From the IMG/VR virus record IMGVR_UViG_3300028887_000067, positions 192,001 to 256,000 of that record: a stretch of DNA of 64,000 bases; one strand, 5' to 3'. The stretch comes from a virus (taxonomy: Duplodnaviria > Caudoviricetes). The translations under genes and the position numbers were made by a program. The stretch's first letter is position 1. Every line of letters starts with the position of its first letter. This document shows, in pieces, positions 1-63,022 of the stretch. Under the pieces are notes generated by a model. That model searched no databases. It saw only the letters and a list, made by a program, of their open reading frames with translations, and had not been told where the DNA came from.

Positions 1-2409
1 CACTTCGTTTGCAAGTATAATTTGCTGTTTTATCGCATATTGACGACTTACTTGGGCATAAATATACAGAGAATGTATAACTGGGCCGAAACCCACACCA
101 ATAGTGGTTTCGCTTCTATCGACTGGCTTGTTACTGAGTATCATTTTCCAGTATGTTCGATAGTTACTACGGGTGCCAGTGGTCAAGCTAAGGTTTTCCG
201 GTGTGTACGGGTCATTGTTATTGCTGGCATACAACACCTTATTAGAACTAGATGAAATCGTCGAGAAATAAATTCCCGCCAAGGATTCCCCGGAGTTGTC
301 AATTAATGCTATGAGTAAATAGTCTGAACCGTTGTATACAAATGGCTTATTTAATTGCATTTCAAACCATCCGGTTGCACCGATATATATCAGTCCACTA
401 TATACTTTATCATCGTCGGATGGGATTATCCAGCTAGTTGTTGAGCTAAACTGCGTCTTATTTGTATGTTTTATATATAAATCGACACATCTGATTGTAG
501 GTGATGAAGATGAATATTGAGGCACCTTAAACGAAACCGATTTAATTGTGGCTGCGGTTCCAATTTCGTTTGCGGTAATTATTTGTTCGCAAGCAGTATA
601 GTAGTATCCATTTCTTATTGGATAATACCCTGTTGAACTAGATTCATTGCCAATAGTTATTTCTCTATTGTCGTATACATCTTCAATTTTCGGGTAGATA
701 TACCATACATCGCTTGGTACTAAGTAAGACATTGTACTGTCGTCGAAACTGCCGCCTGGTACAGTCACGTCTTCATCGCCATATCCGTCAGCATAAGTGA
801 CCGTGAAGGTTGCCGTATCACCAGAAACTCCATATATAACGCTTGGCGTAATTGCGATAACCCTGTCAGTCGAGGAAATATCTGGTATAATTTGCACCTT
901 CGTTGGGCTAATCACGACGTTGACGTTGGATTGGATGTTAGTTATGACGATCGCACCGTTGACTAGTGTTCCGCCGCTTACTGAAATGGTGGAGAAATCT
1001 GCGCCATTACTAAGGGTAACCGGTATACTGATTGTGTCGCCAAGCCTTGCAATGGTGCTGTCTATTTCTGTAGATGCCCACGGACATGCGGAACTGTCGA
1101 TGGTGATTGTATATAATCGTTCGCCAGAAATAACCATTTTTAGCTGGTTTTTGGAGGTTGTTATCGATCCACCATACGTAGCCGCGGATTCTGGGGAATA
1201 ATTGGTATTATCATTGTATATATACAACGTAGAACCATTGCTTCCGTCAAACGTGGCAAAGTATCCGGAACTGGTGTACGAACCCGTATTATCATCAACC
1301 ATTATAAGGAGATTACTATGTCCATCGTACTCGAATGGTGTTGTCAATGTTAATTCATGCCAACCGGTCGTACCGCAATATATGGTTCCACTAAATACTT
1401 TGTCGGAGTCGCTCATGGATACCCAGTCGTTATAGCTGCTAAATGCGGTTTTATTGGTATGGGCCATGTAGATGTCAATAGTACGAGTCGATGAATCCGG
1501 TGTAACAATATAGAAGGCAATCGTTTTAATTGTTCCAATCGCACCAATTTCAGCCGCTTCGTATAACTGCTCGGTAAGTGAATACTTATAATACGTATTA
1601 AGTGGTATGTCACTTCTGGATGATTCCCCGGAACCAATTAATACCTCGATATTGGAGACATTGTCCGTAATGGCCGGACGTATCGACCAGGTATCAACCG
1701 GTACTATATATGTTAATACATTGCCATTGAATGTGCCGTTGTCCACCTTGACATCATCCGCCCCGCACCCTTCCGCATAGGTCACAATAAATTCAGTAGT
1801 CGCACCTGGCGTGGCATATGCTACGCTAGGAACAATCGCAATTATTGACTCGGTATTTGACAAGTCTGGCATAACCTGTACCTTGACCGGACTGATTGTC
1901 ACGTTGATATCGGATTGGACATCGGCGATGACGATGGCATTATTGGATAGTACGCCGCCAGTCACAGAGATCGTAGATTCGTCTGCGCCGTCGATAAGTG
2001 TCACTGGGATGGTAGCCGTATGACCCTCGAATCCGTAGTAACTCTCCGATTCGGTAGACGCCCAGTCACACAATGACTCGACGGAAATCACATACGGTTC
2101 TTTTGCCGGGACTAGCGTAACTTCAACATCACTTGTGACATTCTCCACCGTCACCCCAGCCTCGCTGACTGTACCACCGATAGCGCCGACATAGGTGTAG
2201 TCGGCTCCCATGGTGAGTACGAGAGGGACGGTTACTGAGCCCCCATCGTATACGTGTACGGAAGATACGCTCGCTTCTGCCCATTCGCAATTCGACACGA
2301 ATGTGACCGTGTGTGACGGTGGGTGCTTCCTGAGCAGCATTCCGTTCTTCTTGTCCCCGATGCGGATACGTCTACCGCGCGGCGTGGTGATATACGGCTG
2401 GTCGGACAT
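1..2409 (-). CDS. Repetitive tail-fibre/adhesin-like protein (>803 aa, runs off the window start; missing from the ORF track)
   Basis: GGAGG RBS, then ATG at 2409 (MSDQPYITTPRGRRIRIG...). Manual translation is open down to base 1. Repeats of Ig-like beta segments plus a domain 'PLNTYYKYSLTEQLYEAAEIG...IDIYMAHTNKTAF...GWHELTLTTPFEYDG.SNLLIMVDDN' that recurs about three times. Confidence 0.85.
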   Translation of the reverse strand, partial: MSDQPYITTPRGRRIRIGDKKNGMLLRKHPPSHTVTFVSNCEWAEASVSSVHVYDGGSVTVPLVLTMGADYTYVGAIGGTVSEAGVTVENVTSDVEVTLVPAKEPYVISVESLCDWASTESESYYGFEGHTATIPVTLIDGADESTISVTGGVLSNNAIVIADVQSDINVTISPVKVQVMPDLSNTESIIAIVPSVAYATPGATTEFIVTYAEGCGADDVKVDNGTFNGNVLTYIVPVDTWSIRPAITDNVSNIEVLIGSGESSRSDIPLNTYYKYSLTEQLYEAAEIGAIGTIKTIAFYIVTPDSSTRTIDIYMAHTNKTAFSSYNDWVSMSDSDKVFSGTIYCGTTGWHELTLTTPFEYDGHSNLLIMVDDNTGSYTSSGYFATFDGSNGSTLYIYNDNTNYSPESAATYGGSITTSKNQLKMVISGERLYTITIDSSACPWASTEIDSTIARLGDTISIPVTLSNGADFSTISVSGGTLVNGAIVITNIQSNVNVVISPTKVQIIPDISSTDRVIAITPSVIYGVSGDTATFTVTYADGYGDEDVTVPGGSFDDSTMSYLVPSDVWYIYPKIEDVYDNREITIGNESSSTGYYPIRNGYYYTACEQIITANEIGTAATIKSVSFKVPQYSSSSPTIRCVDLYIKHTNKTQFSSTTSWIIPSDDDKVYSGLIYIGATGWFEMQLNKPFVYNGSDYLLIALIDNSGESLAGIYFSTISSSSNKVLYASNNNDPYTPENLSLTTGTRSNYRTYWKMILSNKPVDRSETTIGVGFGPVIHSLYIYAQVSRQYAIKQQIILANEV

Positions 2410-7308: not shown

Positions 7309-8532
7309 ATGCAAGAAGGGAATAACAAAGCCACGGAGCTGCGTACGATCGAGCTCGCCGACCAAGTCGACCTTGTCTACGTAATGCGGCTTAACGGACG
7401 TCGCGAGGACGACGCGCTCGTCATCAGCAACGTCAAGTTCGAGAGGAAGGAAGGCTGTGCGTTCCTGAAACTGGATTGCGACTCGAGTCCCGAGGTCAAT
7501 TGCTTCCGGTTTGACAAGTGCGAGTTCGACGGCAATATGGTTATCCGCATCCATTCGGGCGCCATCCAGGTGCCCGCCGTACAGTTCGAAAACTGCTCGA
7601 TGGGTGAGTGCCGCCTGGAATCGGATTTCTCGCTTTCGCTGAAGGACTGTTCGGCCGCCACCCCCTTCCGGGTGACCGACACGTCCGGGTCCTCGGCTCA
7701 TTTTCACACCCTGTCGCTCGTCGGCTGCGCCAAGGCCCTGTTGGCCACGACCGATATCGATTGGCACGGAATCGTGGCCATATGCAGCGCGGAACTGACG
7801 CCTGCATCCAGCATCAAGATCAGGCACGCCCACGGCGTCGATCTCAGCGCGGTTGTCGGCAGGCCGGTGGTCACGATTACAGGTGCGGGCGAGGATAGCT
7901 ACGTGACAGTGTTTTCCTGCTCGTTTGGCGAACTGAATGTCATGAAGTCTATAGTACACAGGCTCGGCGTACAAATATCCCGCATCCCCAAGATGCGCGT
8001 GGCGTATTCCGTTATCGAACAGCTCTCCATCGATGACGGTAGCGTGACCGAGCTGGAGGCCCGCTCTTCGGCGAGCGCCAATACGACTTACGGCGTCGTT
8101 CCCCCGACCGTCACATCGATAAACAGTTCCGGATTCGGGGAGGAGACGAAAGCGTCGGTGATGTACGTCCCATGTCGCGTAGAGAACCGTCACCAGGCAA
8201 CCGTCGGCTATGCAATCGCCGAGCTCCTCGTCCCGAGAACGGCGAAACGTACGGATTACACGTCCTACGTGATAGCCTCGGAGGCCAAGGTGATCGATAT
8301 CTACGAGGCACGCAAGGTGATCAATGTCGACGAGGCATACAAAGCCCAGAGTACGTTCATACACCCGCCGGTCAAGCCGGCGTTAGGATTGCGTTATGTG
8401 GCGATGCTTTCCTTCCCGTTAATTTCCGGAATGGTCGAGCAGCCTACCGAGTTCAAGATAGGCCGTATCGTTACCGACGTGTACGGGTGTCGCACCATCA
8501 ACGAGGCGGAAAATCTGCCTGATCAGCCCTAG
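7309..8532 (+). CDS. Hypothetical protein: beta-helix-like N-terminus, DUF5758-like C-terminus
   Basis: AAAGGAG RBS; TTTGCTATATTT promoter motif upstream; C-terminal 'IAELLVPRTAKR...ASEAKVIDI' resembles DUF5758. Confidence 0.5.
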   Translation: MQEGNNKATELRTIELADQVDLVYVMRLNGRREDDALVISNVKFERKEGCAFLKLDCDSSPEVNCFRFDKCEFDGNMVIRIHSGAIQVPAVQFENCSMGECRLESDFSLSLKDCSAATPFRVTDTSGSSAHFHTLSLVGCAKALLATTDIDWHGIVAICSAELTPASSIKIRHAHGVDLSAVVGRPVVTITGAGEDSYVTVFSCSFGELNVMKSIVHRLGVQISRIPKMRVAYSVIEQLSIDDGSVTELEARSSASANTTYGVVPPTVTSINSSGFGEETKASVMYVPCRVENRHQATVGYAIAELLVPRTAKRTDYTSYVIASEAKVIDIYEARKVINVDEAYKAQSTFIHPPVKPALGLRYVAMLSFPLISGMVEQPTEFKIGRIVTDVYGCRTINEAENLPDQP

Positions 8533-9500
8533 CGCACGTCGACGAGGCCGGTACCCTTGCAGGTGGAACACACCCGCTCGCTGTCGTCGACGCCGGTGCC
8601 GCCGCAGTCGGGACAGTAGTCCCTGTCGTCGGCGTTCTCGTCGGGCTCCTCGTCCTCGGAAAAGTCGTAACCCTTTGCGTCCCTTTCCCATGTGTGCGAG
8701 GGCACCTTGCTGAACTCCTCCGCGTCGCCCGACGGCTTGTAGCCGGGGCGTTCGTACTTCAGGATGATGTCCTTGATGAGCCGGTGACGGACGATGTCGT
8801 CCACGCCGAGTGTCACGAAGCCTATCCTCGGCACCCCACGGAGCAGTCCCAGCGCGTGAACGAACCCGGAGTCCGCCCTGTCGCCAAGGTCACACTGCTG
8901 CGCGTCGCCGCATATGACCATCTTTGAATCGCGACCGAGCCTGGTGAGCATCAGCTTCATCTGCGACACTGTCGTGTTCTGGAACTCGTCGCAGACGATG
9001 AAGCTCTTCTGCAGGGTGGAACCCCTTATGTAGGCCAGCGGGCACACCTGTACCTTGGAATAGAAGTCGTTGTTCGAGAATATCTCGTCAAGGTTCTTGT
9101 CCTTCCTCTTGGCCCGCTTCTCCTTGGCCGTCAGGGTCGGCATCTGCTTCACCTGTTCCTCCGGCTTGACGCGCCGTCCCTTGATCAGGGAGATGGCGTC
9201 GTAGAGGGGTTGCATGTATGGGGCGATCTTCTCGTCGAGCGAGCCCGGAAGGAAGCCGAGTTCCTCCCCTCCCGTTACCACGGGCCTGGTAAGGACCAGC
9301 TTCTCGTAGTTACCGCTGTCCATGCCGGCTATACCGAGCCAGGTGGCGATGGCCGTCTTGCCGGTGCCCGACGGCCCGTCGACGAAAATGATGTCGTTCT
9401 TCTTGATTGCTTCGACGAGGTTGTCCTGTCCCTGCGTCTTCGTGTAGATGGGACGGTTATGCCTGTCCCTGATGATTTCCTGGCCGCAAAAGTTTTGCAT
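8529..9500 (-). CDS. phoH: PhoH-family ATPase with C-terminal CxxCxGxG zinc finger
   Basis: GPSGTGKT Walker A, LTRP, LGFLPGSLDEK, YIRGSTL, DEFQN, LTRLG..SK, GD..QCDL, DIVRH motifs. Confidence 0.93.
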   Translation of the reverse strand: MQNFCGQEIIRDRHNRPIYTKTQGQDNLVEAIKKNDIIFVDGPSGTGKTAIATWLGIAGMDSGNYEKLVLTRPVVTGGEELGFLPGSLDEKIAPYMQPLYDAISLIKGRRVKPEEQVKQMPTLTAKEKRAKRKDKNLDEIFSNNDFYSKVQVCPLAYIRGSTLQKSFIVCDEFQNTTVSQMKLMLTRLGRDSKMVICGDAQQCDLGDRADSGFVHALGLLRGVPRIGFVTLGVDDIVRHRLIKDIILKYERPGYKPSGDAEEFSKVPSHTWERDAKGYDFSEDEEPDENADDRDYCPDCGGTGVDDSERVCSTCKGTGLVDVR

Positions 9501-9569: not shown

Positions 9570-9598
9570 TTGACTTTTGCAAAACGGAATACTATATT
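9570..9598 (+). promoter_or_regulatory. sigma70-type promoter TTGACT-N17-TATATT
   Basis: Near-consensus -35 and -10 with 17-nt spacer; no credible ORF downstream. Confidence 0.75.
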
Positions 9599-9604
9599 TT
9601 GGAA

Positions 9605-10145
9605 TATGGACGTGCGCGACGCGTCCGGCAGATTTAAAATGAGCTTAACGGTGCATTCAGCAATCAACTTTTGTTCTAACACCAGGCCGCCAATATCGGC
9701 TCGACGCCGGTTGCCCGTTTGGGTATAGTCTAACGTAGGACAGCGGCTACCTGAACAACGAACGCACCGTGCCTTTGAAAACAAAAGGCGTCCCGCACCA
9801 CAGGGAAGTGTCCGTGACGACGGACATCACTTGGAGATTGCATGCCGGGCGCCAGTCCGGGCCCTATAGTTGCCAGGCCGGCAGGTCTACATTTGCGAGT
9901 GTCCTGCCGGAGTCCGATCAAGGCCGTCCTCGCTTGCAAGGAGGCGACCATGTACACGACTTCTAAACAGCGTAACGACTACGGCGTCAAGTTCACGGGA
10001 ACCATATTCCCGCCGACGATGCCGATGAACGGTCGACCTTTGCCGCTATTCTAGGAAGCGACACGCTGAAACGGACATAACGGGGAGCCGTAAAGCTACA
10101 ACTAACCGCATAAGAAAAATATTGTGTCGTGGCGGGTAGGGTGAC
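9605..10145 (+). ncRNA. Candidate large, multi-stem structured non-coding RNA (family not identified)
   Basis: ~650-bp gene-free gap, strong promoter and at least 9 stems, including 9608-14/9620-26, 9648-54/9764-70, 9809-15/9820-26, 9878-85/9903-10, 9968-73/10063-68, 9996-10001/10007-12 and 9955-60/10126-31. Confidence 0.65.
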
Positions 10146-10153
10146 CGGCGAAT

Positions 10154-10933
10154 TTAACTCTTTCTCATGGATTCCGCCTTCTGGCGGGCAAGCTTGAACG
10201 CGTTGGACCTGGTGAACAGGTCCCACGAATAATAACCGTGTGTCGCGATGAACTTCGCTATGCACGGGAACACTTCGGCCTTCAGGCGCTCCGTAGCCAC
10301 CTTGAACTCATTCATCCACGACTGGTCGTGTACCATCTCGGTAAGGCCTTTCCACTGGCCGTCGATTACCGACACGGCCGGGTTGCCGTACGTTGTTTCT
10401 ACCACGACGTAGGTCTTTATGGCCTCGGTGACGATGTTGCCGTAGGACGGCTCCTCGGCGACGAGCTTTTCCATCGCCTCCACGAAACCCATGGCGTTTT
10501 CGGCGGACTCGTTCATCGCCGAGTCCCTGTTGAGCATGTCCATGTACCTGCCCTTCTCCTCGGCTTCCTTGAACTGGGGGGACATGAGGAATTCCACCAA
10601 GGCGGCGTCGCCGAACTTGGTCATGTAGGTCAGCAGCTCGTTCAACTTCATCTTGAAGTCCACGAAGTCGGCGTCGAACGTGCTCCGGTCGGCCTCCTTC
10701 AGTCGCAAGTCCCTGTTGGTGACGCGGTGTGCGCTGGGGGCGGGCTCCTCCATCTTGGCCGGGTTGCCGAACACGGCCTCCTTCGCCTTGCCGCAGGCGG
10801 ACTTGATGCCGTCCATCAGGCCTTCGTTGAGGATGTAGCACTTGGCGATGCACTTCAGGACCTCCTTGCCCTCGGGGTGTATCTTGGCGAGCTTGGTGAG
10901 ACCTTCGAGATAGATAGCGTGTTTCTCAGACAT
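10154..10933 (-). CDS. Hypothetical protein, possible internal head protein
   Basis: 259-aa ORF with good codon bias; late-type ATAAACT motif upstream; repeated hydrophobic-x-Glu motifs (YLEG, LNEG, MNES, VTEA). Confidence 0.6.
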   Translation of the reverse strand: MSEKHAIYLEGLTKLAKIHPEGKEVLKCIAKCYILNEGLMDGIKSACGKAKEAVFGNPAKMEEPAPSAHRVTNRDLRLKEADRSTFDADFVDFKMKLNELLTYMTKFGDAALVEFLMSPQFKEAEEKGRYMDMLNRDSAMNESAENAMGFVEAMEKLVAEEPSYGNIVTEAIKTYVVVETTYGNPAVSVIDGQWKGLTEMVHDQSWMNEFKVATERLKAEVFPCIAKFIATHGYYSWDLFTRSNAFKLARQKAESMRKS

Positions 10934-11022: not shown

Positions 11023-12414
11023 ATGGCCAAAAGACTTACGAAGGCTGACCTGAACGAGGACCAGCTCAACGCGCTTGAATTTATCAAGAACTTCATCAAC
11101 TCGCCCGACAGAAGGCAGATGGTCCTGTACGGGGCGGCCGGAACTGGCAAGACTTCTCTTATCAACGTCCTTCTCGACGAACTCGACGAGGACGCTAACT
11201 CCCCCGTGTACTACTGCACGGCGCCGACCAACACGGCGGTCGAAGTGATTGCCGACAAGACGGGGCGTGACTTCGATCGTACCATTTACTCCCTGCTGGG
11301 ACTCATCCTCGTGGACTTTTCCGACGGCCGTCCCCGGCTGAAGAAGGAGAACGAAAGCCACCTTCACGAATACGACCTCATAATAGTCGACGAAGCGTCG
11401 ATGGTGTCCCTCATGCTTCTCAACGAGATCCAGCGACAGCTGCGAATATACACCGCCCTGAAGATCATCTACGTGGGCGACAGGTGCCAGATTCCTCCCG
11501 TGGACGACGCCAACAACGGGAATCTCGAATCCATCATCTTCCAGCTCCCCCTGCAGGTCGAGCTTACCAAGGTGATGCGCACGGCCACGGAGAACCCTAT
11601 CCTCGGCGCGGTAACCGCCATGCGTGCCGACATGAAGAGCGAGACCGACCTGTTCGAGCACGAGACGAAAGTGGCCGAGGACGGGACGGGCATATACTTC
11701 TACGGACTGCAGAAGCCGTTCATGAACACTATGCTGGATTATTTCCGTCGACCCGAGTACAAGGACGACCCGAACTATGTGATGGCGCTCGCCTATACCA
11801 ACAAGGCCGTGGACGCCATCAACGAGAAGGTTCGCGGGGTGCTCTATCCCGACAGCAAGCGGATGTACGAGCCGGGGGAGGTTGTCCGGGTCGAACGGAC
11901 ATACGGCAACATCATCAACAGGGGAAAGTCGTCCATTTTCAGCGTGGTGTACTCTATCGGGGAACGCCTGCGCGTCGACGACGTCGAGGACACGGCCGAC
12001 CCGGCCTACGGGATCCCCTGCTACAAGATAAAGGCCACTAACTGCGTCAAGAAGAAGTCCGGGCGAACCACGACCGTGGCCTACGTAGTGGCGCCGGATG
12101 GGACGGACCAGTATATGTCTCTGAAGGAAAAGCTCGCCGTAGGCGCGAGGGAGAAGGAGAAGGAACTCAACACACGCGGACACCCCGTTTACACCCCGAG
12201 GGAGGCGTGGAAGGAGTATTCCGACTTCAAAAAGTTCCACCTGTGGCTGGGTTACATCTACGCGCTGACTTCGCACAAGGCGCAGGGGTCGACGATACAG
12301 AACGCCTTCGTAGTGGAACGCAACATCAACCGGATTTCGGAGGCCGAGCTCAGGAACAAGCTGAAATACACGGCGTTCACCCGTGCCGCCCGAGAGCTCC
12401 ACGTATTGAGCTGA
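11023..12414 (+). CDS. Dda/RecD-like SF1B DNA helicase
   Basis: GAAGTGKT, TAPTN, IVDEASM, GD..QIPPV, LTKVMR, YALTSHKAQGST and YTAFTRA motifs. Confidence 0.93.
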   Translation: MAKRLTKADLNEDQLNALEFIKNFINSPDRRQMVLYGAAGTGKTSLINVLLDELDEDANSPVYYCTAPTNTAVEVIADKTGRDFDRTIYSLLGLILVDFSDGRPRLKKENESHLHEYDLIIVDEASMVSLMLLNEIQRQLRIYTALKIIYVGDRCQIPPVDDANNGNLESIIFQLPLQVELTKVMRTATENPILGAVTAMRADMKSETDLFEHETKVAEDGTGIYFYGLQKPFMNTMLDYFRRPEYKDDPNYVMALAYTNKAVDAINEKVRGVLYPDSKRMYEPGEVVRVERTYGNIINRGKSSIFSVVYSIGERLRVDDVEDTADPAYGIPCYKIKATNCVKKKSGRTTTVAYVVAPDGTDQYMSLKEKLAVGAREKEKELNTRGHPVYTPREAWKEYSDFKKFHLWLGYIYALTSHKAQGSTIQNAFVVERNINRISEAELRNKLKYTAFTRAARELHVLS

Positions 12415-12415
12415 T

Positions 12416-12724
12416 ATGTTAGCCGGAATACTGTATTGCGCGACGGCGGTGGCGACCGCGTACCGGATATATCGCAAGATGAAGAAGCGCATTCTCGATT
12501 CCGCCAGATATCCGACGGGCCCCTTGTCGAGCCGGTATAGCGTGAAACGCGATGATTCGATGAAGCACCTATGCCGTCTCTCGGTACACGACCTGATGAC
12601 GGAACTGACGAAGGAGATTGATGCGGAGATACTCAACGCAATGAAGCTTTTGGCACAGTCTAACCTGGAAACTCTTGACGGAAAGGCTCCCAAGAGCTAT
12701 ATTAAAGCCGGAAAACATCCATGA
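12416..12724 (+). CDS. Hypothetical protein with N-terminal hydrophobic segment
   Basis: Fills the gap between helicase and IF3 in operon orientation. Confidence 0.5.
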   Translation: MLAGILYCATAVATAYRIYRKMKKRILDSARYPTGPLSSRYSVKRDDSMKHLCRLSVHDLMTELTKEIDAEILNAMKLLAQSNLETLDGKAPKSYIKAGKHP

Positions 12725-12734
12725 AGGAGACTTA

Positions 12735-13457
12735 ATGGCATTTATCAAGGCTAATTTCGTCCTGATGCAGGACGAGGGTGGCAAGGACCTGGGCAAGATG
12801 CCCACCGGACAGGCCAAGGAATATGCACGCAAGAGGGGAATGGAACTGTTCCCCGTGGACGAGAAGGTTGACCCGCCCGTCTACACCGTCAGGCCACGGC
12901 AGAAGTTCGTGCCTCGTCAGGCGGACGACGGCCGTTCCCAGTACGTAGTGACCGCAGACAAGGTCCGTTGCTCCGACGAGAACGGAGTGTCGCTCGGCGT
13001 CATATCCACGGAGGAAGCCAAGCACATTGCGTCCGAGCGCGGCCTGGACCTCATAGCCGTCAACAATCACATGGACCCGCCTATCGGCCGGATCGGCGAC
13101 CTCAACAAGTACATCTACGACCAGAAGAAGGCGCAGAAGGAGAGGGAGAAGAAGAGCAGGGCGGCGGCGAGGGGTTGCGAAAAGAAGGACTTGAAGATGA
13201 CCTCCGACACAACGAACGCGTCAAAGGCCGACCGTGCCCGCATACTGAACCAGGCGAACGATTTCCTGAAGGACGGCCACCCGGTGGACATCAACATCCG
13301 TTTCCGTGGTCGCGAGAACGCCCATTCCGATACCGCTATGGCGAAACTCCGCGAGGAAATCGCCGAAGGCATCACCGAGGGCACAGTCGGGCAGGAGACC
13401 AGCAACTCGACCGGTGACACGTTCACCATCAGCTGCGTCCCCAGGAAGAAGCACTAG
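12735..13457 (+). CDS. infC: Translation initiation factor IF3 homologue with tandem duplicated N-terminal domain
   Basis: AAGGAGA RBS and ATG at 12735; two IF3-N units (DEGGKDLG..P...AKEYARKRGMELFPV....DPP and DENGVSLGVIS...AKHIASERGLDLIAV....DPP); Lys-rich linker; IF3-C 'FLKDGHPVDINIRFRGRE'. Confidence 0.88.
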   Translation: MAFIKANFVLMQDEGGKDLGKMPTGQAKEYARKRGMELFPVDEKVDPPVYTVRPRQKFVPRQADDGRSQYVVTADKVRCSDENGVSLGVISTEEAKHIASERGLDLIAVNNHMDPPIGRIGDLNKYIYDQKKAQKEREKKSRAAARGCEKKDLKMTSDTTNASKADRARILNQANDFLKDGHPVDINIRFRGRENAHSDTAMAKLREEIAEGITEGTVGQETSNSTGDTFTISCVPRKKH

Positions 13458-16590: not shown

Positions 16591-16812
16591 ATGTGGACTT
16601 TAATTCTCGTATTGGCTATTCATGGTTCGGTATTTACCGAACCGCAAACTATGATGACCAATATTCCCGGCTTCTCATCCAAGGAAAACTGCCTAGCGGC
16701 TGGCGAATCCCTTGCCAAGGAGAATCAAAAGCGCGGTTCTTGGATATATCACTGTATCGAAGTCAACTACGCACACCCTTTAGGGTGTGAGCTTGTAGTT
16801 GCAACCGTTTGA
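16591..16812 (+). CDS. Small secreted/membrane protein whose 3' end is interrupted by the TnpB element
   Basis: AGGAGG RBS; MWTLILVL signal-like start; 'F.SKENC..AG' motif. Joining 16761 to 18248 restores the ending ...CIEVK*. Confidence 0.6.
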   Translation: MWTLILVLAIHGSVFTEPQTMMTNIPGFSSKENCLAAGESLAKENQKRGSWIYHCIEVNYAHPLGCELVVATV

Positions 16813-18247
16813 ACTAGTTGCAACCACGATTGGCCGGTTGACATCGGCCTGCCCGAGAATACCATAGAGCCATAAGTTGGCTTGACTACGATTGAGTCGG
16901 GGCGGTGACGGAGGACGATATTGCAAGCGCCATTACTATCGGCATCAAGCAATTCTCCGTCTGAGGCATAATAACGAGTACCCAGCCGTTTGCCTTCAAG
17001 CAATCCTCGGTAGTCGAGACGGGATGTATAAGCTGGTTCAACTGTTACCACTTCCTTCCCGAGAAGCGGTGCCTTGTACTCTAGTGTGGTCTGGATTTCT
17101 TTCAGAGGAACCTGTCCAAACCGGTTATTATGCTTCTTTCGTTTGATTTCCGTGTGCTTCCCATCTATCTTGATGGTCTTCTTGGAAGTACACTTCTTAA
17201 TCTTGCTTAAATCTTCTAGTACATAGGTAGTATAGTCCTTTGCAAGAAGCCAGTTCACTACCCTATGGACTTCGTTCTTCGAACGATTTTGTTCAGTCCT
17301 TGACAATTTCTTCAAATGACGCTTAGCAGACTTGGTATTCTTTGACTTTAAACAACGGCGTAGATAGCGGAGCTTTCTTCTTTCTCGGTTAAAATCACGG
17401 TTAATCCACCCGGTCCCATCGGAACAGGTCACAATACGGCGAATCCCTCGGTCTACGCCGAGAGCTTCGCCTTCGGTGTGCTCAAGTTCCGGAACATCAA
17501 ACTGGATGGTTAAGTAAAACTGACCTTTTCGATAGAAAATATTGCAGTTCTGCGGCTTGTATAGCTCAAATAATTTGCTCAGTTGCTTGTATGAATCGAA
17601 GGTACAGCGGACTCGCTTGAAACCGGGTACAGTCAAATCGACGGCATTATGTGTTAAATTGTTGTACAATCGCTTGTCGAGAACCATAGAAAGGTTCTTC
17701 TTGATAGGCGGCTCGAAATTGTTTTTTTCGTTTGCTATGCAAGTAGTCCAGTTGCCTACGGCTTCCAATATAGCCTTCAGGACCATCTGGCTGCTTAATA
17801 GCGGAAATTGCTCCCTCAGTTCCTTGTAGTATTCCGATTGTACATCGTATCGACTTAATCTATGGTGCTTAAAGTCTATTCTACTGAATATCTGGCTAAG
17901 ATAGTTATAGCAATCCTTCTCAGCTTCGAGAATTTCCTTGTATCTTGTTTCAGTTTCCGTATTAGGAAATTTGAGAACTGCATTATAACTAATCACCATA
18001 AAGCAAGCAATGCCCGGTAGACACTTATTTTGGCCTTCAGTATCTACCGAGCATCTAAAATCCTATCAAGTACCAGAAGAAGGCCAATAATTCCGATACA
18101 TTAAAAGTTTATACAATTTACAAAAATATTTCATTCAATTCCAATATATTTTGCTATATTTTCATTGGAGGCGGCCATTCCTATGCCACCCTAAAGGGTT
18201 CCCGACCGCTATTCGCGGTCGGTGGCATCTTCCTGGCCGATTATTTT
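16762..18247 (-). mobile_element. Non-autonomous IS200/IS605-family (IS1341-like, tnpB-only) element
   Basis: Right end with CACACCC-TAAA-GGGTGTG hairpin ending ...GTAGTTGAC on the minus strand; left-end hairpin with CACCCTAAAGGGT at ~18187; lower GC; no tnpA; boundaries restore the flanking ORF. Confidence 0.75.
16767..17999 (-). CDS. tnpB: TnpB RNA-guided endonuclease
   Basis: RuvC-I GVDRG, RuvC-II VLEDL, PAYTS, RuvC-III DADSNGACNI; zinc-finger cysteines absent. Confidence 0.9.
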   Translation of the reverse strand: MVISYNAVLKFPNTETETRYKEILEAEKDCYNYLSQIFSRIDFKHHRLSRYDVQSEYYKELREQFPLLSSQMVLKAILEAVGNWTTCIANEKNNFEPPIKKNLSMVLDKRLYNNLTHNAVDLTVPGFKRVRCTFDSYKQLSKLFELYKPQNCNIFYRKGQFYLTIQFDVPELEHTEGEALGVDRGIRRIVTCSDGTGWINRDFNRERRKLRYLRRCLKSKNTKSAKRHLKKLSRTEQNRSKNEVHRVVNWLLAKDYTTYVLEDLSKIKKCTSKKTIKIDGKHTEIKRKKHNNRFGQVPLKEIQTTLEYKAPLLGKEVVTVEPAYTSRLDYRGLLEGKRLGTRYYASDGELLDADSNGACNIVLRHRPDSIVVKPTYGSMVFSGRPMSTGQSWLQLVQTVATTSSHPKGCA

Positions 18248-42584: not shown

Positions 42585-43030
42585 TGGGCGAAGCTTACGA
42601 TATGGAAAACAGAACGCCGTCGAACCGGAATGGCCGTAACAAGGCCATCCTGTTTGCCTGCCTGCTTGCCTATATCGCGTTGGTCGCGCCGTCCGTCTAC
42701 GGTATGGCCCGGTTCTTCACCGGTATGGCAACCGGAGGCTCCTGTACAGCCGACGTAGCCATCGTGCAGCCGGACGGCACGTATATCCAGTCTGCCGTGA
42801 TATCGCTCAATGGTGACGGCGTTGTCGTGAAGGACATGTCGTGCGCCAAGTTCAACGAGCGTTACTCGGAAGAACGTCCGCTTAACCTATTTCGCTACGC
42901 GCATCCGTACTTCGCGCTATACTCTTTGCTGGTATGCGCGGGGACGCTGGTGGCCTTAGTGTCCTGGCCACTGGCGTCTTTCGGCGGATTCTTGTCCCGT
43001 AGGTTGGTCAAGCGTAAACAGAATTGCTAG
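42584..43030 (+). CDS. Two-TM membrane protein
   Basis: TAATG overlap with terD 3; two hydrophobic segments. Confidence 0.65.
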   Translation: MGEAYDMENRTPSNRNGRNKAILFACLLAYIALVAPSVYGMARFFTGMATGGSCTADVAIVQPDGTYIQSAVISLNGDGVVVKDMSCAKFNERYSEERPLNLFRYAHPYFALYSLLVCAGTLVALVSWPLASFGGFLSRRLVKRKQNC

Positions 43031-45370: not shown

Positions 45371-47704
45371 ATGCCGACCAACAAGCAGGTGCTATATCGA
45401 GTTATCCATCAGATCCTAGGCCTGCCCGAGTGCGACGCGGGCGATATCAAGGTGGATATGAACGACATCTCGCTTTCCGACCGAGGATTCGTCGTAAAGT
45501 TCCGTACACCCGACTCGACCTCTCCCCTGTTCGTTATGAAGTCCAATATGGTCAACACGGAAATCGTGTTCCGTGACGAGAACGTCAGGCGACGTATCGA
45601 TGTTACCGACACGGGAATATCCGACGTTGACCTCGGCTGGGTCAAGAAGGCGATCGCCTACTACGTGCGCACGGTGCGCGAAATCGCGACCCGCGTCATG
45701 ACGGCCGAGGGCGCGATGCAGTCGGAGCGTGGCGAACCTTATTTCGAACAGTTCCCGAAGGCTTCCCCGAGACAACTGCTCGACCAGTCGTACCCGAGTC
45801 CGGAGCTCGTTGACGCGGTGAAGAACTATCTGACCGTGATGGGCGCCTACGACGAGGAAGCCGCCGAGGGAATCCTGACGGACAACAGGGTAGCGCTATC
45901 CAGACTCGTCGCCTCCGGGGTGTCTCCGGCCGACGCGGTCAAGTACGTGTTCAACTCGCCGACGCAAATCGCCAACATCGATCCCGACGACATCGTGGTT
46001 TCCGACAGGAAGACCGGTGAATCGGTCACTCTCGGGCGCAGCTCGGGAAGCCGGCTCTCCACCCTTCTCGACGCCCCGCTCAACGAGAATACGTCGTGCT
46101 CTGTCGACATTGGCTACCTGCAGGGCGGCGAGCGTCCGGCGATGTTCTACCGTCTCACCATAGACGGCGGCAAGCTGGCTCTCACGCGCTACACGAACCC
46201 CGACGAAGGCGGTAAGGTCAATACCAGCTCGGTCAAGTCTACTACCGCCCTGGGTGATCTCGATTCGCTGAACGAGTGGATCGATTCCACCATCCAGTCC
46301 CTCTACGAGGTCGACTACGACATCGACAACAAGCCGAAGGGCAACCTCGTCGTGTATTTCGGTGAGAACCCGCCGGAAAAATATCCGGACGACGTGGCCG
46401 CGACCATGGCGGCCTACAGGAAGGCGGGACACCGGGTCGAGATGTCGGCGAACGCCGGTAGCACGAACCTTGTCAGCGATGTCCCGGTCGAGTTCAAGGT
46501 GGCCGACACGGCGGACGACAGTACCGACCACGCCGTCGTATACCTGCTTGGCAGTACCAAGCTTCCCGTCATATCCATCCCGGTCGACGGCGACACGTCC
46601 CACGCGGGAGAAGGTTTCATCGTTGTTGACGACGGCGCCGGTACGGAGATGAAGTATATGACCCGCGTCGGTCGCAAGACGGCATACGCTTCGGAATCAT
46701 TCAACACGGTTGCAGGTGCGGTTAGCTTCGCCCGCAAGCTAGTCCCTGCATACAAGCTCGTGACCGATTTTGACAAGGGAGTACGAGGCCTCGTCAGGCT
46801 TCTCATCAATTCCGGCGCGAAGGACGTGGAAGGCGCAAACATATCCCATATCGACCCGTCGAACTACTACACCGATTCGAAAATAGACAAGGTCGGCGAC
46901 AACGTGAAGGTCGTCATGACCCTGTTCTCGACGATTTCCGACAAGACGATGGTGTTCGACGCGATCGTTTCCGACGTCGAAGGCGGGGTGAAGGTCGACT
47001 TCATGTACAGACCCGCCGCGGCAAGTACGCCGGTAGAGGTCAAGCTTGGCGACGAAAGCGTTGCCCAGGCGCTTACCGACCCGTCCAACGGCAGCTTCAA
47101 CGACATAATCAAGACCATGATACCCGTGCTGGCGTCTTCTATGTACGGCAACAAGCCTACCCAGAGCGAAATCGCCAAGAACACGGCCCAGGCCGAGCTG
47201 GAGCGCCGCCGTCGCAACAGTCTCGTCGCTGAACCCGAAGTGGACAAGTCCGACGCCATCGCCAAGATTGGCGCCTGCCGCACGGCGTTCGACAACACGT
47301 TCGGCCCGATGGTCGAGCAGCTCCGTGACAAGTCCGGCGAGGGAGCGTACGCCGACGTTACCTACAAGCTCAGCCAGAACTACGTGTCGCGAAACGATGA
47401 CGGAAACATAGTGTCCGTGTCGTTCAACGTGGACAACGGCGAGAGCGGAAACTTCTTCACGATGCAGAAAGCCGACGAGGCCGGAAAGCGTCTTGACGAG
47501 AGCGTCGTTGTATGCCAGGTCGAGGGCAACGCGAACAGCTACGTCTCTTACGAGAACGGAAGGCTGTCTCCGAAGTTCGTCGAGTGGTTCCTGTCCAAAC
47601 CGGGCAAGCTGCAGAGCGCTATAGCAAGGGCGAGACGGCACGCTGAGGAGCCGCCCGCAGAACCGGACACTTCCCTGATATACAGGGACGGCCCAGAGGA
47701 CTAG
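45371..47704 (+). CDS. Large hypothetical protein, probably virion-associated
   Basis: 777-aa ORF; TATAAACTGC at 45339 and AAGGA RBS. Confidence 0.75.
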   Translation: MPTNKQVLYRVIHQILGLPECDAGDIKVDMNDISLSDRGFVVKFRTPDSTSPLFVMKSNMVNTEIVFRDENVRRRIDVTDTGISDVDLGWVKKAIAYYVRTVREIATRVMTAEGAMQSERGEPYFEQFPKASPRQLLDQSYPSPELVDAVKNYLTVMGAYDEEAAEGILTDNRVALSRLVASGVSPADAVKYVFNSPTQIANIDPDDIVVSDRKTGESVTLGRSSGSRLSTLLDAPLNENTSCSVDIGYLQGGERPAMFYRLTIDGGKLALTRYTNPDEGGKVNTSSVKSTTALGDLDSLNEWIDSTIQSLYEVDYDIDNKPKGNLVVYFGENPPEKYPDDVAATMAAYRKAGHRVEMSANAGSTNLVSDVPVEFKVADTADDSTDHAVVYLLGSTKLPVISIPVDGDTSHAGEGFIVVDDGAGTEMKYMTRVGRKTAYASESFNTVAGAVSFARKLVPAYKLVTDFDKGVRGLVRLLINSGAKDVEGANISHIDPSNYYTDSKIDKVGDNVKVVMTLFSTISDKTMVFDAIVSDVEGGVKVDFMYRPAAASTPVEVKLGDESVAQALTDPSNGSFNDIIKTMIPVLASSMYGNKPTQSEIAKNTAQAELERRRRNSLVAEPEVDKSDAIAKIGACRTAFDNTFGPMVEQLRDKSGEGAYADVTYKLSQNYVSRNDDGNIVSVSFNVDNGESGNFFTMQKADEAGKRLDESVVVCQVEGNANSYVSYENGRLSPKFVEWFLSKPGKLQSAIARARRHAEEPPAEPDTSLIYRDGPED

Positions 47705-47708
47705 GATT

Positions 47709-47740
47709 AAAAAAAAAGGCACCGCAGTAGCGGTGCCGTT
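47709..47740. terminator. Terminator between convergent genes
   Basis: A-run, then GGCACCGC-AGTA-GCGGTGCC-GTT. Confidence 0.75.
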
Positions 47741-47757
47741 CTCGTCTTCAGAAATGG

Positions 47758-48357
47758 TTACCACGCGAACGTCTTCTTCAGCGAGTCGGCGGTACGGCCT
47801 TGCCGCTTAACCCATTCGTGGTCGTGTTGCATCTTTTCCCCGTTCTCTTTCTTTTTCTTTTCGCCTTCGGGTTCATCCGGATCCGGCGCGAGGTCGCCCC
47901 ACACCATGTCGTCGTCATCGACATCGGGTTCGTTTTCTTCGACTTGCTCGCCTTTCAGGCTACGTACGTGCTTGTTGATGGCGGCTACTATGTAGCGGTA
48001 AATCTTGTTCCTTGTCTCGTCGTCGGCGGATTCGAAGTCGGCGATGAGAGGCATGTAGTACGACGTCGCGATGTCGCGTACTTCTTCCTGCGTGATGTGG
48101 GGAGTGTCGCAGTCCGCCGGAATGCTGTTGGCGTATTCTTCGGTAAATTTCTTCACAGCCGCGTTGTATATGTCGTTTGGCGTCTGCGCCTGTTGCTGTA
48201 CGGGCTCCTGGTCATTCTCCGACTGCTGTGCCGTAGCCGGTTGAGCCTGCTGGGCCTGCGTAGCGTCCTCGAATATGGAATTGGGGTTATGTTCGCCGGT
48301 ACGCTCGAAAATGCGACCGAATGCGTCAAGCATGTTGCACCCAATGTGTTCAATCAT
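47758..48357 (-). CDS. Acidic hypothetical protein, late-promoter driven
   Basis: TATAAACTAC at 48382-48391; IFER and IFED motifs; Q/A-rich linker. Confidence 0.65.
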   Translation of the reverse strand: MIEHIGCNMLDAFGRIFERTGEHNPNSIFEDATQAQQAQPATAQQSENDQEPVQQQAQTPNDIYNAAVKKFTEEYANSIPADCDTPHITQEEVRDIATSYYMPLIADFESADDETRNKIYRYIVAAINKHVRSLKGEQVEENEPDVDDDDMVWGDLAPDPDEPEGEKKKKENGEKMQHDHEWVKRQGRTADSLKKTFAW

Positions 48358-48416
48358 AATAGGCTCGCGGTTCGTTTTGATGTAGTTTATAAGATTGAAC
48401 TAAATAGGAACCACGC

Positions 48417-49370
48417 ATGACACCGGAAAACATCTCTGATAGGGAATCCAAGTTCGCTCTGAAGCTTGTCGATTCCAACGCTAAACAGTTCACCGCAGGC
48501 GATGCCATCGACATCGGCGGTGGATTCAGCATCACGCCGTTGACCACTAACATCAGCTCGTACTACTACAAGACTCCGACCACGAAGACACAGATATGTC
48601 TCCATTTCACGGTCGGCATGATCCAGTCGGACATAGCCACGCTGACGAGGGCGAACAACCATATGTCCGTGCAGTACGTGGTCGACCGCCTCGGACACAT
48701 CTACAGGCTATTCCCCGACGAGTTCTGGAGCTACCATCTTGGCGCGAGCGCGGTCGGCGGCAACGCGGCTATGTCGAAACAGTCCATCGGTATCGAGATT
48801 TCGAACTACGGCCCGCTCAAGCTCAACGGGGCCAAGTATGAAGATGTCTACGGCAGTACCTATACGACGGACGACTCGCTCGTAGACAAGGTGTCCTTCC
48901 GTGGTTACGACTACTACGCCAAGATGTCCGAACGACAGAAGGAAGCCGTGGCGCGTCTGGCCGTGTACATCTCCAAGAAACACGGGATCCCGCTCGACTT
49001 CAAGGAATTCTTGTCCGAACCGTTCAAGAGCAAGGAGGACGCGCTCGCGTTCCGTGGGATATTCTGTCACTGCCATGTCCGCAGCGACAAGTACGACCTG
49101 CCTCCCGAACAGGCGATGCAGATCAAGGACGCGATAGCCGCCGTCACCAGCCCAGTTGCCGAACCGGCGCAGGAACCCGTACAGGAGCCGGAAAAGGAAC
49201 CCGATAAAGAGCCGGAAAAGGAACCGGAAAAAGAGACAGAAAAGGAGGCCGAACCGCAACAGGCGCCCTCCGTGGAAAGTCGTCCGGAACCTGTCCGGCA
49301 AGTTGAACCGCCTGCACGCCTGCCGTGGTGGCAACGGCTTCTTGAAATTCTTCGCGACGCGTTCCGCTAA
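48417..49370 (+). CDS. N-acetylmuramoyl-L-alanine amidase (Amidase_2; endolysin candidate)
   Basis: LHFT, 'S..YVVDR.G.I', 'WSYHLG', SIGIEI, 'H..VRSDK.D'; (EPEK)n linker; amphipathic C-terminal helix. Confidence 0.88.
   Translation: MTPENISDRESKFALKLVDSNAKQFTAGDAIDIGGGFSITPLTTNISSYYYKTPTTKTQICLHFTVGMIQSDIATLTRANNHMSVQYVVDRLGHIYRLFPDEFWSYHLGASAVGGNAAMSKQSIGIEISNYGPLKLNGAKYEDVYGSTYTTDDSLVDKVSFRGYDYYAKMSERQKEAVARLAVYISKKHGIPLDFKEFLSEPFKSKEDALAFRGIFCHCHVRSDKYDLPPEQAMQIKDAIAAVTSPVAEPAQEPVQEPEKEPDKEPEKEPEKETEKEAEPQQAPSVESRPEPVRQVEPPARLPWWQRLLEILRDAFR
49160..49260 (+). repeat. Degenerate 12-bp tandem repeat coding an EPxK/EPxQ linker
   Basis: gaaccggcgcag gaacccgtacag gagccggaaaag gaacccgataaa gagccggaaaag gaaccggaaaaa. 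Confidence 0.7.
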
Positions 49371-49398
49371 GTTCAACCGTAATTGCTATATTTGCACC

Positions 49399-49893
49399 AT
49401 GATCGACATTACAAAGACACACGCATTCTTTTTCACCGAGTGGCCGTCCAACTTCTACTATACGACCATCGAATACAAGGGGCAGAAGTTCTTCTGTTCC
49501 GAGCAGGCGTTCATGTGGGAAAAGGCCAAGTATTTCAAGGACGAGGAAACCGCCTCCCTCATCCTTATGGTCGATACGCCTATGAAGGCAAAGCAGCTTG
49601 GGCGTAAAGTCCGTAACTACGTCGATTCTGAATGGGACAAGGTGCGGTTCGACGTTATGTACGAGGTCAACTTGGCCAAGTTCTCCCAGAACGATGAGCT
49701 GAAGCGCAAGCTGCTCGACCCGAAGTTCGACGGCAAGACCTTCGTCGAGGCGTCTCCCTACGACAACATCTGGGGAATCAAGATAGGCCTCGGAGATGCC
49801 CGCCTTCACGACGAAAAGAACTGGATGGGGCAGAATCTCCTCGGTAAGGTCATCACGAAAGTCCGCGAAACCCTCAAGTCGGAAAGTAAGTGA
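49399..49893 (+). CDS. NADAR (YbiA/DUF1768) family protein, predicted leaderless
   Basis: SNFY, SEQAFM..KA..F.D, AKQLGRKV, KFSQN, EASPYDNIWGI, GQNLLG; TGC-TATATT-N6-ATG. Confidence 0.93.
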   Translation: MIDITKTHAFFFTEWPSNFYYTTIEYKGQKFFCSEQAFMWEKAKYFKDEETASLILMVDTPMKAKQLGRKVRNYVDSEWDKVRFDVMYEVNLAKFSQNDELKRKLLDPKFDGKTFVEASPYDNIWGIKIGLGDARLHDEKNWMGQNLLGKVITKVRETLKSESK

Positions 49894-50393
49894 TGGCTAC
49901 CGCAGTCTTCTATGTCGTGTTTGCCGTTCTGGGATTCGTCGTGCTGGCGCTGTCCCTTCGGAACGACTTCGCCGGACGGTCGCGTGACATAGTGGACGCG
50001 TGGTATGCCAGTACTGTAGACAAGATCAAGAAATACGCCGAGCTGGAATGCGGATGGAACGGATACGACGCCCCGATGATACCCCCCGAGGTCATCGCGT
50101 TCAGTCTCGCAGTGGTCGAGGAAATGAAGTCGTCCGGCCCGTGGGTCGCCCTGTGGGAGGTGTTCCCGACGGGGAGGGAGACCATACAATTCGAAACGAG
50201 CCAGACGGCCTATGTCGAAGTGGAAATATACAAGAAATACGCTGTGCTGTTCGACCAGAGCAAGAAGAGCAACAGCGAACAGGTATTGCATGCTTTCGAC
50301 GCCAAGGACGTCGTCGAAAAGATGAGGTCGGCGACGAAAGTCCCTCTCATGAAGAAACTCAGTTGGTATTGGTATGGCGACACTCAACAATAA
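49893..50393 (+). CDS. Membrane-anchored hypothetical protein
   Basis: N-terminal TM; 'L..GWNGYDA..I' motif. Confidence 0.6.
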   Translation: MATAVFYVVFAVLGFVVLALSLRNDFAGRSRDIVDAWYASTVDKIKKYAELECGWNGYDAPMIPPEVIAFSLAVVEEMKSSGPWVALWEVFPTGRETIQFETSQTAYVEVEIYKKYAVLFDQSKKSNSEQVLHAFDAKDVVEKMRSATKVPLMKKLSWYWYGDTQQ

Positions 50394-51582: not shown

Positions 51583-51650
51583 AATGTGTCATAGCATTTC
51601 AATGGAAATATAGCAAATAATTCGATAATTGTGCAAAATAAATACTATGT

Positions 51651-61081: not shown

Positions 61082-61111
61082 ACCGGCATACAGCCAAAAG
61101 GAAAAACAACC

Positions 61112-61738
61112 ATGATTCAGAAAGATTCCTACGATTTCCTCGAAGTCACCGACTGGCAGGGCGACTTCAACGATGGTGCCCTCAAGAATGACGCCGCTAT
61201 CGCGAAGGAAGATGCAGTCATCGCCGAAATCGACAACTTCGAAGGCGATGTCCTAATTGCAACCCGCGATACCCATGACAAGGACACATACGGCGATTCC
61301 GTCGAAGGACAGAACCTCCCGATTCACTGCGTAAGGGGCACTCCCGGCTGGGAAATCACCCCCCGTGTACAGGAAGCTCTCGATCGGGCGAAGGCCGCCG
61401 GAAAGACGGTCAAGTATGTCGACAAGTCGACATTCGGTTTCCTCGGCTGGCCGAAGGTACTGTTCGATATCGACAGCACCGACCAGGAAGCCGTACACGC
61501 GCTTCTCCGTGGCAAGAAGATCCGCATCCGCATCATCGGTACCTGTTCCAACATCTGCAACATGAGCGCTGCCGTAATCCAACGCGCCTGGTTCCCGATG
61601 GCCGATATTGAATTTGTCGATGGCGCATCCGCACCTTCCGGCCTTACGTCTAAGGAAGTTGAGGATAACCAGAAAGCCGCGTTGACCATCGCGGCAAGTA
61701 TGCTCTGTAAGGTTGTCCCCACGGTCTACAAGGGTTAA
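61112..61738 (+). CDS. pncA: Nicotinamidase (isochorismatase family)
   Basis: D.Q.DF..GAL, TRDTH, P.HC..GT.GW, K.TF, G..S.IC: Asp-Lys-Cys triad plus metal Asp/His/His. Confidence 0.88.
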   Translation: MIQKDSYDFLEVTDWQGDFNDGALKNDAAIAKEDAVIAEIDNFEGDVLIATRDTHDKDTYGDSVEGQNLPIHCVRGTPGWEITPRVQEALDRAKAAGKTVKYVDKSTFGFLGWPKVLFDIDSTDQEAVHALLRGKKIRIRIIGTCSNICNMSAAVIQRAWFPMADIEFVDGASAPSGLTSKEVEDNQKAALTIAASMLCKVVPTVYKG

Positions 61739-63012: not shown

Positions 63013-63022
63013 AGAGGATGCA

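What the first reader, a model, noticed from the sequence alone, without database searches (positions are those of the whole stretch)
9570..10150. Unidentified ~540-nt ornate non-coding RNA under a strong promoter
Seen: the largest gene-free gap in the window. It starts right after TTGACT-N17-TATATT and is packed with nested local and long-range helices: GGACGTG/CGCGTCC at the 5' end, ACGGTGC 9648/GCACCGT 9764, TGTCCGT/ACGGACA, CCGGCAGG/CCTGCCGG, CAGCGT 9968/ACGCTG 10063 enclosing GTTCA/TGAAC and CGGGAA/TTCCCG, and CACGAC 9955/GTCGTG 10126. Size and phage context recall ROOL/GOLLD-class RNAs, but I cannot match it to one. Partial hints: group I-like elements GGGTATAGTCT (9721) and CGTAACGACTA (9971) could form a P7-like GACUA/UAGUC pair but in permuted order; RNase P-like words AGTCCGGGC, TGAAACGG, GGAGC and CGGGTAGG occur in the canonical order, without the full consensus.
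Basis: partly seen in the sequence, partly recalled or inferred. Interest (0 to 1): 0.8.

Follow-up and report, generated by a model that had tools for sequence, protein, structure and literature searches.

The report
tRNA-mimic RNA plus unknown phage RNA
This gene-free stretch of a jumbo phage is not one big ornate RNA but a promoter-driven unit holding a small Y-RNA-like tRNA look-alike followed by a conserved, folded 360-base RNA that matches no known family.

Summary
In detail: a 650-bp gene-free gap in a jumbo phage, a phage-type promoter at 9570-9598, and the seven helices I checked at the stated places. The single ROOL/GOLLD-like reading does not hold; the region is composite. Part 1 (9646-9772) is a 7-bp stem plus CAGCAA 'handle' enclosing a circularly permuted tRNA body, i.e. 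YrlA-like. A model built without the window finds it as the only hit in the genome (44.9 bits). Its promoter and leader are paralogous to a three-handle RNA operon in the same phage species' tRNA region. This scan has reported the handle family before in other phages, beside Ro60-like DUF2828 genes; no such gene was found here or in a 93%-complete relative. Part 2 (9776-10140) diverges 3-5 times less than fourfold-degenerate sites among close strains, but whole-region folding is only modestly better than shuffles, there is no two-sided covariation, and no distant homologue was found. RNase P, group I and tmRNA tests failed. The group I-like 'TAGTCT' is the tRNA D-arm. Expression is untested. 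Most likely role: tRNA-mimic decoy or scaffold in phage counter-defence; part 2 is unassigned.

The parts
9570..9598 (+). Promoter TTGACT-N17-TATATT of a class used across this phage; start near 9604-9606 inferred
   Evidence: same class heads the handle-RNA units of G001 and of the same species' tRNA region
9604..9645 (+). Leader: 7-bp hairpin 9608-9626, then GCAGATTT-AAAT...GAGCT, shared with the sibling operon
   Evidence: alignment score 70 against a maximum of 44.9 in 4736 genome windows
9646..9772 (+). Handle RNA (Y-RNA-like): stem 9648-9654/9764-9770, 3 nt, CAGCAA 9658-9663, A-rich 3' linker
   Evidence: same architecture as 4 FelixO1 and 5 G001 RNAs; only hit of a strict handle filter in 308 kb; model R2 44.9 bits, E 2e-6
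9685..9748 (+). Circularly permuted tRNA body: anticodon-stem-like helix 9685-9690/9743-9748, V 9691-9694, T arm 9695-9711 (degenerate loop CTCGACG), acceptor 9712-9716/9721-9725 sealed by a 4-nt loop, TA, D arm 9728-9741; no anticodon loop
   Evidence: fold z -2.9 and compensatory C9688T+G9745A in strain L141; family covariation
9771..9789 (+). Short GCCTTT/AAAGGC hairpin right after the handle RNA; possible boundary or processing mark
   Evidence: a CCTT/AAGG hairpin also follows the lone G001 handle RNA; role inferred
9790..10140 (+). Unassigned, sequence-constrained multibranched RNA of about 350 nt (domain 2); 3' end not defined
   Evidence: 1.2-2.7% divergence against 6.3-7.8% at fourfold sites, p 8e-5 to 7e-4; substitutions tend to spare predicted pairs; no family or distant homologue
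9938..10054 (+). Shine-Dalgarno-like AAGGAGG inside a hairpin and a 34-codon ORF (ATG 9950); probably not a gene
   Evidence: ATG becomes CTG in L131; 6 of 7 changes in the 70-codon frame are non-synonymous; no real homologue
8529..9500 (-). Flanking phoH gene (divergent); context only
   Evidence: PF02562; relatives have other DNA upstream of phoH
10154..10933 (-). Flanking 259-aa hypothetical gene (convergent); context only

Best explanation
The gap is a small non-coding transcription unit of a jumbo phage. A phage promoter drives a leader, a ~127-nt handle RNA and a ~350-nt second structured RNA. Shown: the handle RNA belongs to a widespread phage family in which a terminal stem plus CAGCAA carries interchangeable tRNA-derived cargo, here a permuted tRNA body that cannot decode (no anticodon loop, sealed acceptor). 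Shown: promoter, leader and handle are a paralogue of the operon in the phage's tRNA region. Inferred: the unit arose by moving or duplicating that operon's 5' end to the phoH locus. Inferred: the handle docks a ring-shaped Ro60-like protein, supplied by the host or by an unseen or unrecognised phage gene, while the tRNA body acts as a decoy or tether for tRNA-recognising host enzymes such as defence nucleases or exoribonucleases, alongside the phage's 30+ tRNAs and RtcB. Inferred and weakest: domain 2 is a co-transcribed scaffold or decoy RNA stabilised behind the handle, or released from it at the 9771-9789 hairpin. I put the anatomy at about 0.85, the decoy/tether role of part 1 at about 0.5, and any specific role of domain 2 below 0.3.
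For: Handle architecture identical to FelixO1 and G001 RNAs and unique in the genome; model R2 hit 44.9 bits; the G001 permuted member scores 39 bits with YrlA RF02553; covariation in handle, T and acceptor helices across the family; three sibling handles with the same promoter and leader in the same species, one carrying a canonical Asn(GUU) anticodon arm; RtcB and a tRNA array in the same species; a DUF2828-type protein near 6 of 9 other family loci by motif search, four confirmed by Pfam; Bas63 gp130, a Ro60-like protein, counters the ppl defence system (10.1101/2024.10.10.617714); purifying selection on domain 2.
Against: No expression data. No TROVE, DUF2828, DUF7788 or vWA_Ro60 gene in G000 (81% complete), G001 (93%) or 30 kb of the same species' tRNA region. 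The window element has no RF02553 match, lacks the 5' GNCGAAN0-1G motif, has a degenerate T loop (further changed in L141), and changes at nearly the neutral rate in L141 (8.3% against 7.8%), so it may be decaying. Six of nine R2 training sequences were picked with a pattern holding the window's TAGTCTA, which inflates that score somewhat. Domain 2 has no two-sided covariation in 4 near-identical sequences and weak overall folding.
Confidence: 0.6

Rival explanations
1. The whole 9604-10140 transcript is one ornate RNA (ROOL/GOLLD-like in kind) that has absorbed a handle-tRNA module as one of its domains.
For: One promoter and no terminator between the parts; about 540 nt; a weak helix joins leader and 3' end in the predicted fold (9634/10157); ROOL and GOLLD occur near tRNAs and in prophages (PMC5737381).
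Against: No Rfam match; part 1 closes on itself and exists alone elsewhere; the two parts evolve at different rates.
Confidence: 0.15
2. Domain 2 is a heavily eroded, non-catalytic RNase P RNA derivative that still binds tRNA elbows or the host RNase P protein.
For: Words AGTCCGGGC, TGAAACGG, GGAGC and CGGGTAG lie in canonical order; by hand a P4 with bulged U (9855-9860/10145-10149) and a P11-like ATGT/ACAT can be drawn; the same word pattern retrieved three genuine viral RNase P RNAs.
Against: RF00010 finds nothing in the genome; alignment to four true RNase P RNAs gives p 0.04-0.6 and scores below random genome windows; ordered-block score 5 bits, matched by 1178 of 3314 null windows, against 45-94 for true ones (only 4 training sequences); CR-IV, CR-V, P2 and the AA of CR-I are absent; A9854 varies A/T/C.
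Confidence: 0.08
3. Domain 2 is a structured leader controlling a 34-aa peptide (AAGGAGG at 9938, ATG 9950).
For: Perfect Shine-Dalgarno sequence sequestered in a hairpin; the frame stays open in all strains.
Against: ATG lost in L131, mostly non-synonymous changes, no homologue among 1.8 billion proteins except low-complexity artefacts.
Confidence: 0.06
4. Domain 2 is constrained for another reason (DNA element, minus-strand 3' region, or a recent sweep of this segment), and the fold is incidental.
For: z only -1.2 for 9790-10150; only three distinct strains; the pair-sparing test is noisy, since on the whole region the - strand did better than + (p 0.013 against 0.068).
Against: Low divergence in two strains; for domain 2 alone + strand p 0.006, - strand 0.11; it lies directly behind a promoter-led RNA gene.
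Confidence: 0.09
5. A circularly permuted group I ribozyme that circularises its insert.
For: ACGACTA (9975) can pair with TAGTCT (9726); P3-, P4- and P6-like pairings can be drawn in the right order.
Against: TAGTCT is the family-wide D-arm sequence; no omega-G is kept before the tRNA half (G9685A in all three variants); the P8-like pairing is broken by strain changes; RF00028 negative in the genome although it detects a real intron in the same species; pattern scans gave chance hits.
Confidence: 0.02

Closest known systems
YrlA, the bacterial and phage Y RNA-like tRNA mimic (Rfam RF02553; Chen et al. 2014, PMC4201824)
   Same: Terminal stem enclosing V, T arm, sealed acceptor-like stem and D arm in that permuted order; about 130 nt; no anticodon loop.
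   Different: CAGCAA handle instead of the 5' GNCGAAN0-1G motif; no RF02553 match for the window copy; degenerate T and D loops; no Ro60/TROVE gene nearby or in the genome portion held; followed by a 350-nt RNA.
Stem-plus-CAGCAA 'handle' RNAs of FelixO1-like and other phages beside DUF2828/DUF7788 Ro60-like genes
   Same: Handle geometry, CAGCAA, A-rich linker and permuted tRNA cargo with a TAGTCTA D arm.
   Different: Outside the tRNA array, no DUF2828 partner found in the clade, eroded T loop, extra domain 2.
phiRo60 with Yrl1/Yrl2 of Thermus phage phiLo (PMC12135203)
   Same: Phage-encoded Y-like RNAs; a model for how such RNAs could engage host PNPase.
   Different: Those carry a CGAA motif and lie just upstream of a Ro60 gene; no CAGCAA is mentioned.
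ROOL and GOLLD large RNAs (PMC5737381)
   Same: Size range, phage and tRNA-rich context.
   Different: No match to their Rfam models; composite anatomy.
Dictyostelid Class I RNAs (PMC7919456)
   Same: Short covarying terminal stem with an adjacent conserved unpaired motif.
   Different: Eukaryotic, 42-65 nt, no tRNA body; sequence match not tested here.

Membership tests
YrlA (RF02553) | tRNA-like domain in the order V, T, AS, D inside a terminal stem | tested here: met
YrlA (RF02553) | Match to the Rfam model | tested here: not met
   no hit at E<=10; the G001 sibling reaches 39 bits, below the cut-off of 69
YrlA (RF02553) | GNCGAAN0-1G motif near the 5' end | tested here: not met
   the 5' strand carries CAGCAA; an ACGAACG lies on the 3' side at about 9758-9764
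YrlA (RF02553) | Ro60/TROVE gene within about 4 kb on the same strand | tested here: not met
YrlA (RF02553) | Binds a Ro60 orthologue; carries pseudouridine 55 and dihydrouridine | not testable with these tools
   needs experiment
CAGCAA handle RNAs | A, 7-bp terminal stem, 3 nt, CAGCAA, A-rich 3' linker | tested here: met
CAGCAA handle RNAs | Significant score with a model from other phages | tested here: met
   44.9 bits, sole hit in the genome; training set partly chosen with a window-derived word
CAGCAA handle RNAs | DUF2828/DUF7788 gene in the same genome | tested here: inconclusive
   absent from G000 (81%), G001 (93%) and 30 kb more of the same species; about 100 kb of the species' genome not seen
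ROOL / GOLLD | Match to the Rfam models | tested here: not met
Bacterial RNase P RNA | Conserved regions CR-I to CR-V with P2 and the P4 pseudoknot | tested here: not met
   positive controls
Group I intron | P3-P7 core with R before S, omega-G, RF00028 match | tested here: not met
   positive control
tmRNA | tRNA-like domain with G3.U70, tag frame, RF00023 or ARAGORN match | tested here: not met
skipping-rope RNA (RF02924) | Rfam match | tested here: not met

The most novel reading that the evidence does not exclude
Domain 2 is a new class of large structured phage RNA, expressed behind a Y-like tRNA mimic in a jumbo-phage clade that keeps handle RNAs without any phage Ro60-like protein, so that the pair works as an RNA-only decoy against, or hijacker of, host tRNA-recognising machinery.
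Probability: 0.25. Interest if true: 0.75.

Novelty: new variant of a known kind. Interest (0 to 1): 0.48.

Why it matters
It adds an informative outlier to an uncatalogued phage family of Y-RNA-like tRNA mimics: a clade with several handle RNAs and no recognisable Ro60-like gene in a 93%-complete genome. That makes it testable whether the handle needs a phage partner, uses a host one or has another ligand. It also nominates a constrained 350-nt RNA of no known family for probing. The limits are that the family was already noted by this scan, domain 2 rests on three close strains, and expression is unshown.

Tried and rejected
Rfam scans at gathering and E<=10, ARAGORN and blastn against GenBank phages: nothing. 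No second copy in the genome held. Synteny: phoH relatives at 61-80% identity hold small ORFs or other DNA at this place. Domain 2 was sought by blastn, nhmmer and a sequence-only model in G001-G005, by five pattern scans of viral contigs, one of metagenome contigs and one of prokaryote genomes: only the same phage or chance hits. These exact-word scans miss diverged homologues, so absence is not shown. Skipping-rope, recalled from memory, was tested and rejected. PhoH2-associated RNAs (10.64898/2026.10.21.760802) were rejected: this PhoH has no PIN domain and the linkage is not kept in relatives. The 393-475 kb contigs of the same species could not be searched whole; I walked 30 kb by gene look-ups instead. 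The host could not be fixed; Fib_succ_major domains in G001, G003 and G004 suggest Fibrobacter (inference).

Full report
Setting. The window is 192,001-256,000 of a 308-kb virus record, 81% complete. Contigs of the same species reach 393-475 kb. The finding lies between a divergent phoH (8529-9500) and a convergent 259-aa hypothetical gene (10154-10933). Gene callers leave this interval empty in all close relatives. Relatives with PhoH at 61-80% identity carry small ORFs or other DNA there, so the element is specific to this species at this locus. The host is not established; related phages carry Fib_succ_major domains.

Observation. The gap is the largest in the window. The promoter is real as a sequence class: TTGAC-N17-TATATT recurs about ten times in the genome. 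Folding is only modestly better than shuffles overall (z -1.88 on +, -0.23 on -), with two better local blocks, 9683-9750 (z -2.9) and 9960-10070 (z -2.75). Rfam gives nothing at E<=10.

Part 1, 9646-9772. The only notable DNA match in a 355-kb relative (G001) was 20 nt at the start of this part. It led to a promoter-led non-coding operon with four repeats of a stem-plus-CAGCAA element, one enclosing a circularly permuted tRNA that scores 39 bits with YrlA. The window's element has the same build: stem 9648-9654/9764-9770, three bases, CAGCAA, then an anticodon-stem-like helix, V, T arm, a 5-bp acceptor sealed by GTTT, TA and a D arm. This is the order described for YrlA (PMC4201824). FelixO1 has four such elements downstream of its DUF2828/DUF7788 gene. 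A strict handle filter finds one site in G000, this one, and five in G001. A viral scan retrieved more permuted-tRNA members, several nearly collinear with the window; six of nine loci lie near a DUF2828-type gene. A covariance model from nine of them, window excluded, scores the window at 44.9 bits, E 2e-6, the sole hit in the genome. Six training sequences were selected with a window-derived word, so this score is somewhat flattered; the FelixO1 and G001 comparisons are free of that. Family helices covary. Strain L141 shows a two-sided change, C9688T with G9745A. The window copy is degenerate: its T loop is CTCGACG, changed further in L141, and its divergence in L141 equals that of fourfold sites.

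Origin. Walking beyond the end of G000 in a 393-kb scaffold of the same species showed a tRNA array of more than 30 genes, then a non-coding operon with three more handle RNAs under the same promoter class, one with a canonical Asn(GUU) anticodon arm as cargo, then RtcB. The window's promoter, leader and handle start align to that operon's 5' end with score 70, against a maximum of 44.9 in 4736 genome windows. In G001 the permuted-tRNA member sits in that operon and a second one stands alone under its own promoter. The window's unit is therefore best read as a relocated or duplicated 5' end of this operon (inference).

Partner. No TROVE, DUF2828, DUF7788 or vWA_Ro60 gene was found in G000, in G001 (93% complete) or among ten unannotated proteins near the sibling operon; positive controls rang. 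No DxSxSM vWA motif protein was seen in either genome. About 100 kb of the species' genome was not seen, so the absence is not final.

Part 2, about 9790-10140. Among three distinct strains (95-99.6% identical) this part diverges 1.2-2.7% against 6.3-7.8% at fourfold-degenerate sites of four flanking genes (Fisher p 8e-5 to 7e-4). Its 15 substitutions lose less predicted + strand pairing than random ones (p 0.006; - strand 0.11), but this was one of six tests and the whole-region result favoured the - strand, so it is weak support. There is no two-sided change. No homologue was found in G001-G005, the tRNA region, or the collection scans. The internal frames are not conserved as protein: the ATG at 9950 is lost in one strain, most changes are non-synonymous, and a search of 1.8 billion proteins returned only low-complexity repeats.

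Group I: ACGACTA does complement TAGTCT, but TAGTCT is the D-arm word shared by the family; RF00028 is negative in the genome yet detects a real intron in the same species' tRNA array; permuted-order scans gave chance hits. RNase P: the words are in canonical order and a partial threading can be drawn by hand, which is why I leave it 0.08. But RF00010 is negative, while the same word pattern pulled out genuine viral RNase P RNAs at 143-188 bits. Pairwise alignments score below random genome windows, an ordered-block score equals the null, and even the most divergent Patescibacteria RNase P RNAs keep CR-I, CR-IV and CR-V, which are missing or altered here. tmRNA is negative.

Mechanism. Shown: anatomy, family membership by structure, paralogy, constraint. 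From the literature: YrlA binds Ro60 and PNPase and is treated as tRNA by host enzymes (PMC4201824); phiRo60 with its Y-like RNAs dampens host PNPase (PMC12135203); Bas63 gp130, Ro60-like and upstream of the tRNA array, counters the ppl defence system. Inferred: the handle is a protein-docking site and the tRNA body a decoy or tether acting with the phage's tRNA supply and RtcB against host RNA-targeting defence. Domain 2 is most simply a co-transcribed scaffold or decoy RNA; nothing here fixes its target.

Verdict. It works like a Y RNA (YrlA) in part 1 but is not a member of RF02553 by motif, score or gene context. It is a member of the CAGCAA handle family that this scan has reported on other DNA. 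I had seen the handle and the permuted tRNA before looking up earlier notes; the FelixO1/DUF2828 lead and the word 'handle' came from them and were re-tested. The new elements are the missing partner and the attached 350-nt RNA. Novelty: new variant of a known kind. Interest 0.48.

Noticed in passing
L294 12931-13137 (same phage species, beyond the left end of G000): A tRNA gene that looks like tRNA-Asn is interrupted in its anticodon loop by a group I intron (RF00028, 37 bits, E 1e-6).
   Followed up: no
L294 about 12140-12340; G001 about 70,600-70,800 (minus): A ~200-nt element that begins like a tRNA and ends in a T arm and acceptor, conserved between the two phages, with no Rfam match; tmRNA-like or intron-bearing tRNA.
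   Followed up: no
G000 98-196 (minus); G001 about 71,600-71,690: Conserved hairpin-rich non-coding element between tRNA genes at the start of the array.
   Followed up: no
L297 5605-6003; G001 60,848-61,376 and 42,874-43,003: Sibling handle RNAs; several carry anticodon-arm-like cargo (Asn GUU in L297; Lys UUU-like in G001), which suggests anticodon-nuclease decoys.
   Followed up: partly
L250 2590-2867, L255 9823-10153, L258 10778-11091: Genuine RNase P RNAs on viral contigs, two inside tRNA arrays; L258 also has a tmRNA.
   Followed up: partly
window 12675-13457: Phage-encoded translation initiation factor IF3 with a duplicated N-terminal domain.
   Followed up: no
window 16767-17999; L294 18853-20592; L299 12168-13463: TnpB/Cas12f-like genes in this species.
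   Followed up: no
window 9991-10030: GTTCA/TGAAC crosses CGGCGTC/GATGCCG: a possible pseudoknot or switch inside domain 2.
   Followed up: partly
G001 46,671-51,967 and 62,848-63,285: RtcB, a probable RNA ligase and a PTH2-like gene near the handle RNAs: a tRNA repair island.
   Followed up: partly
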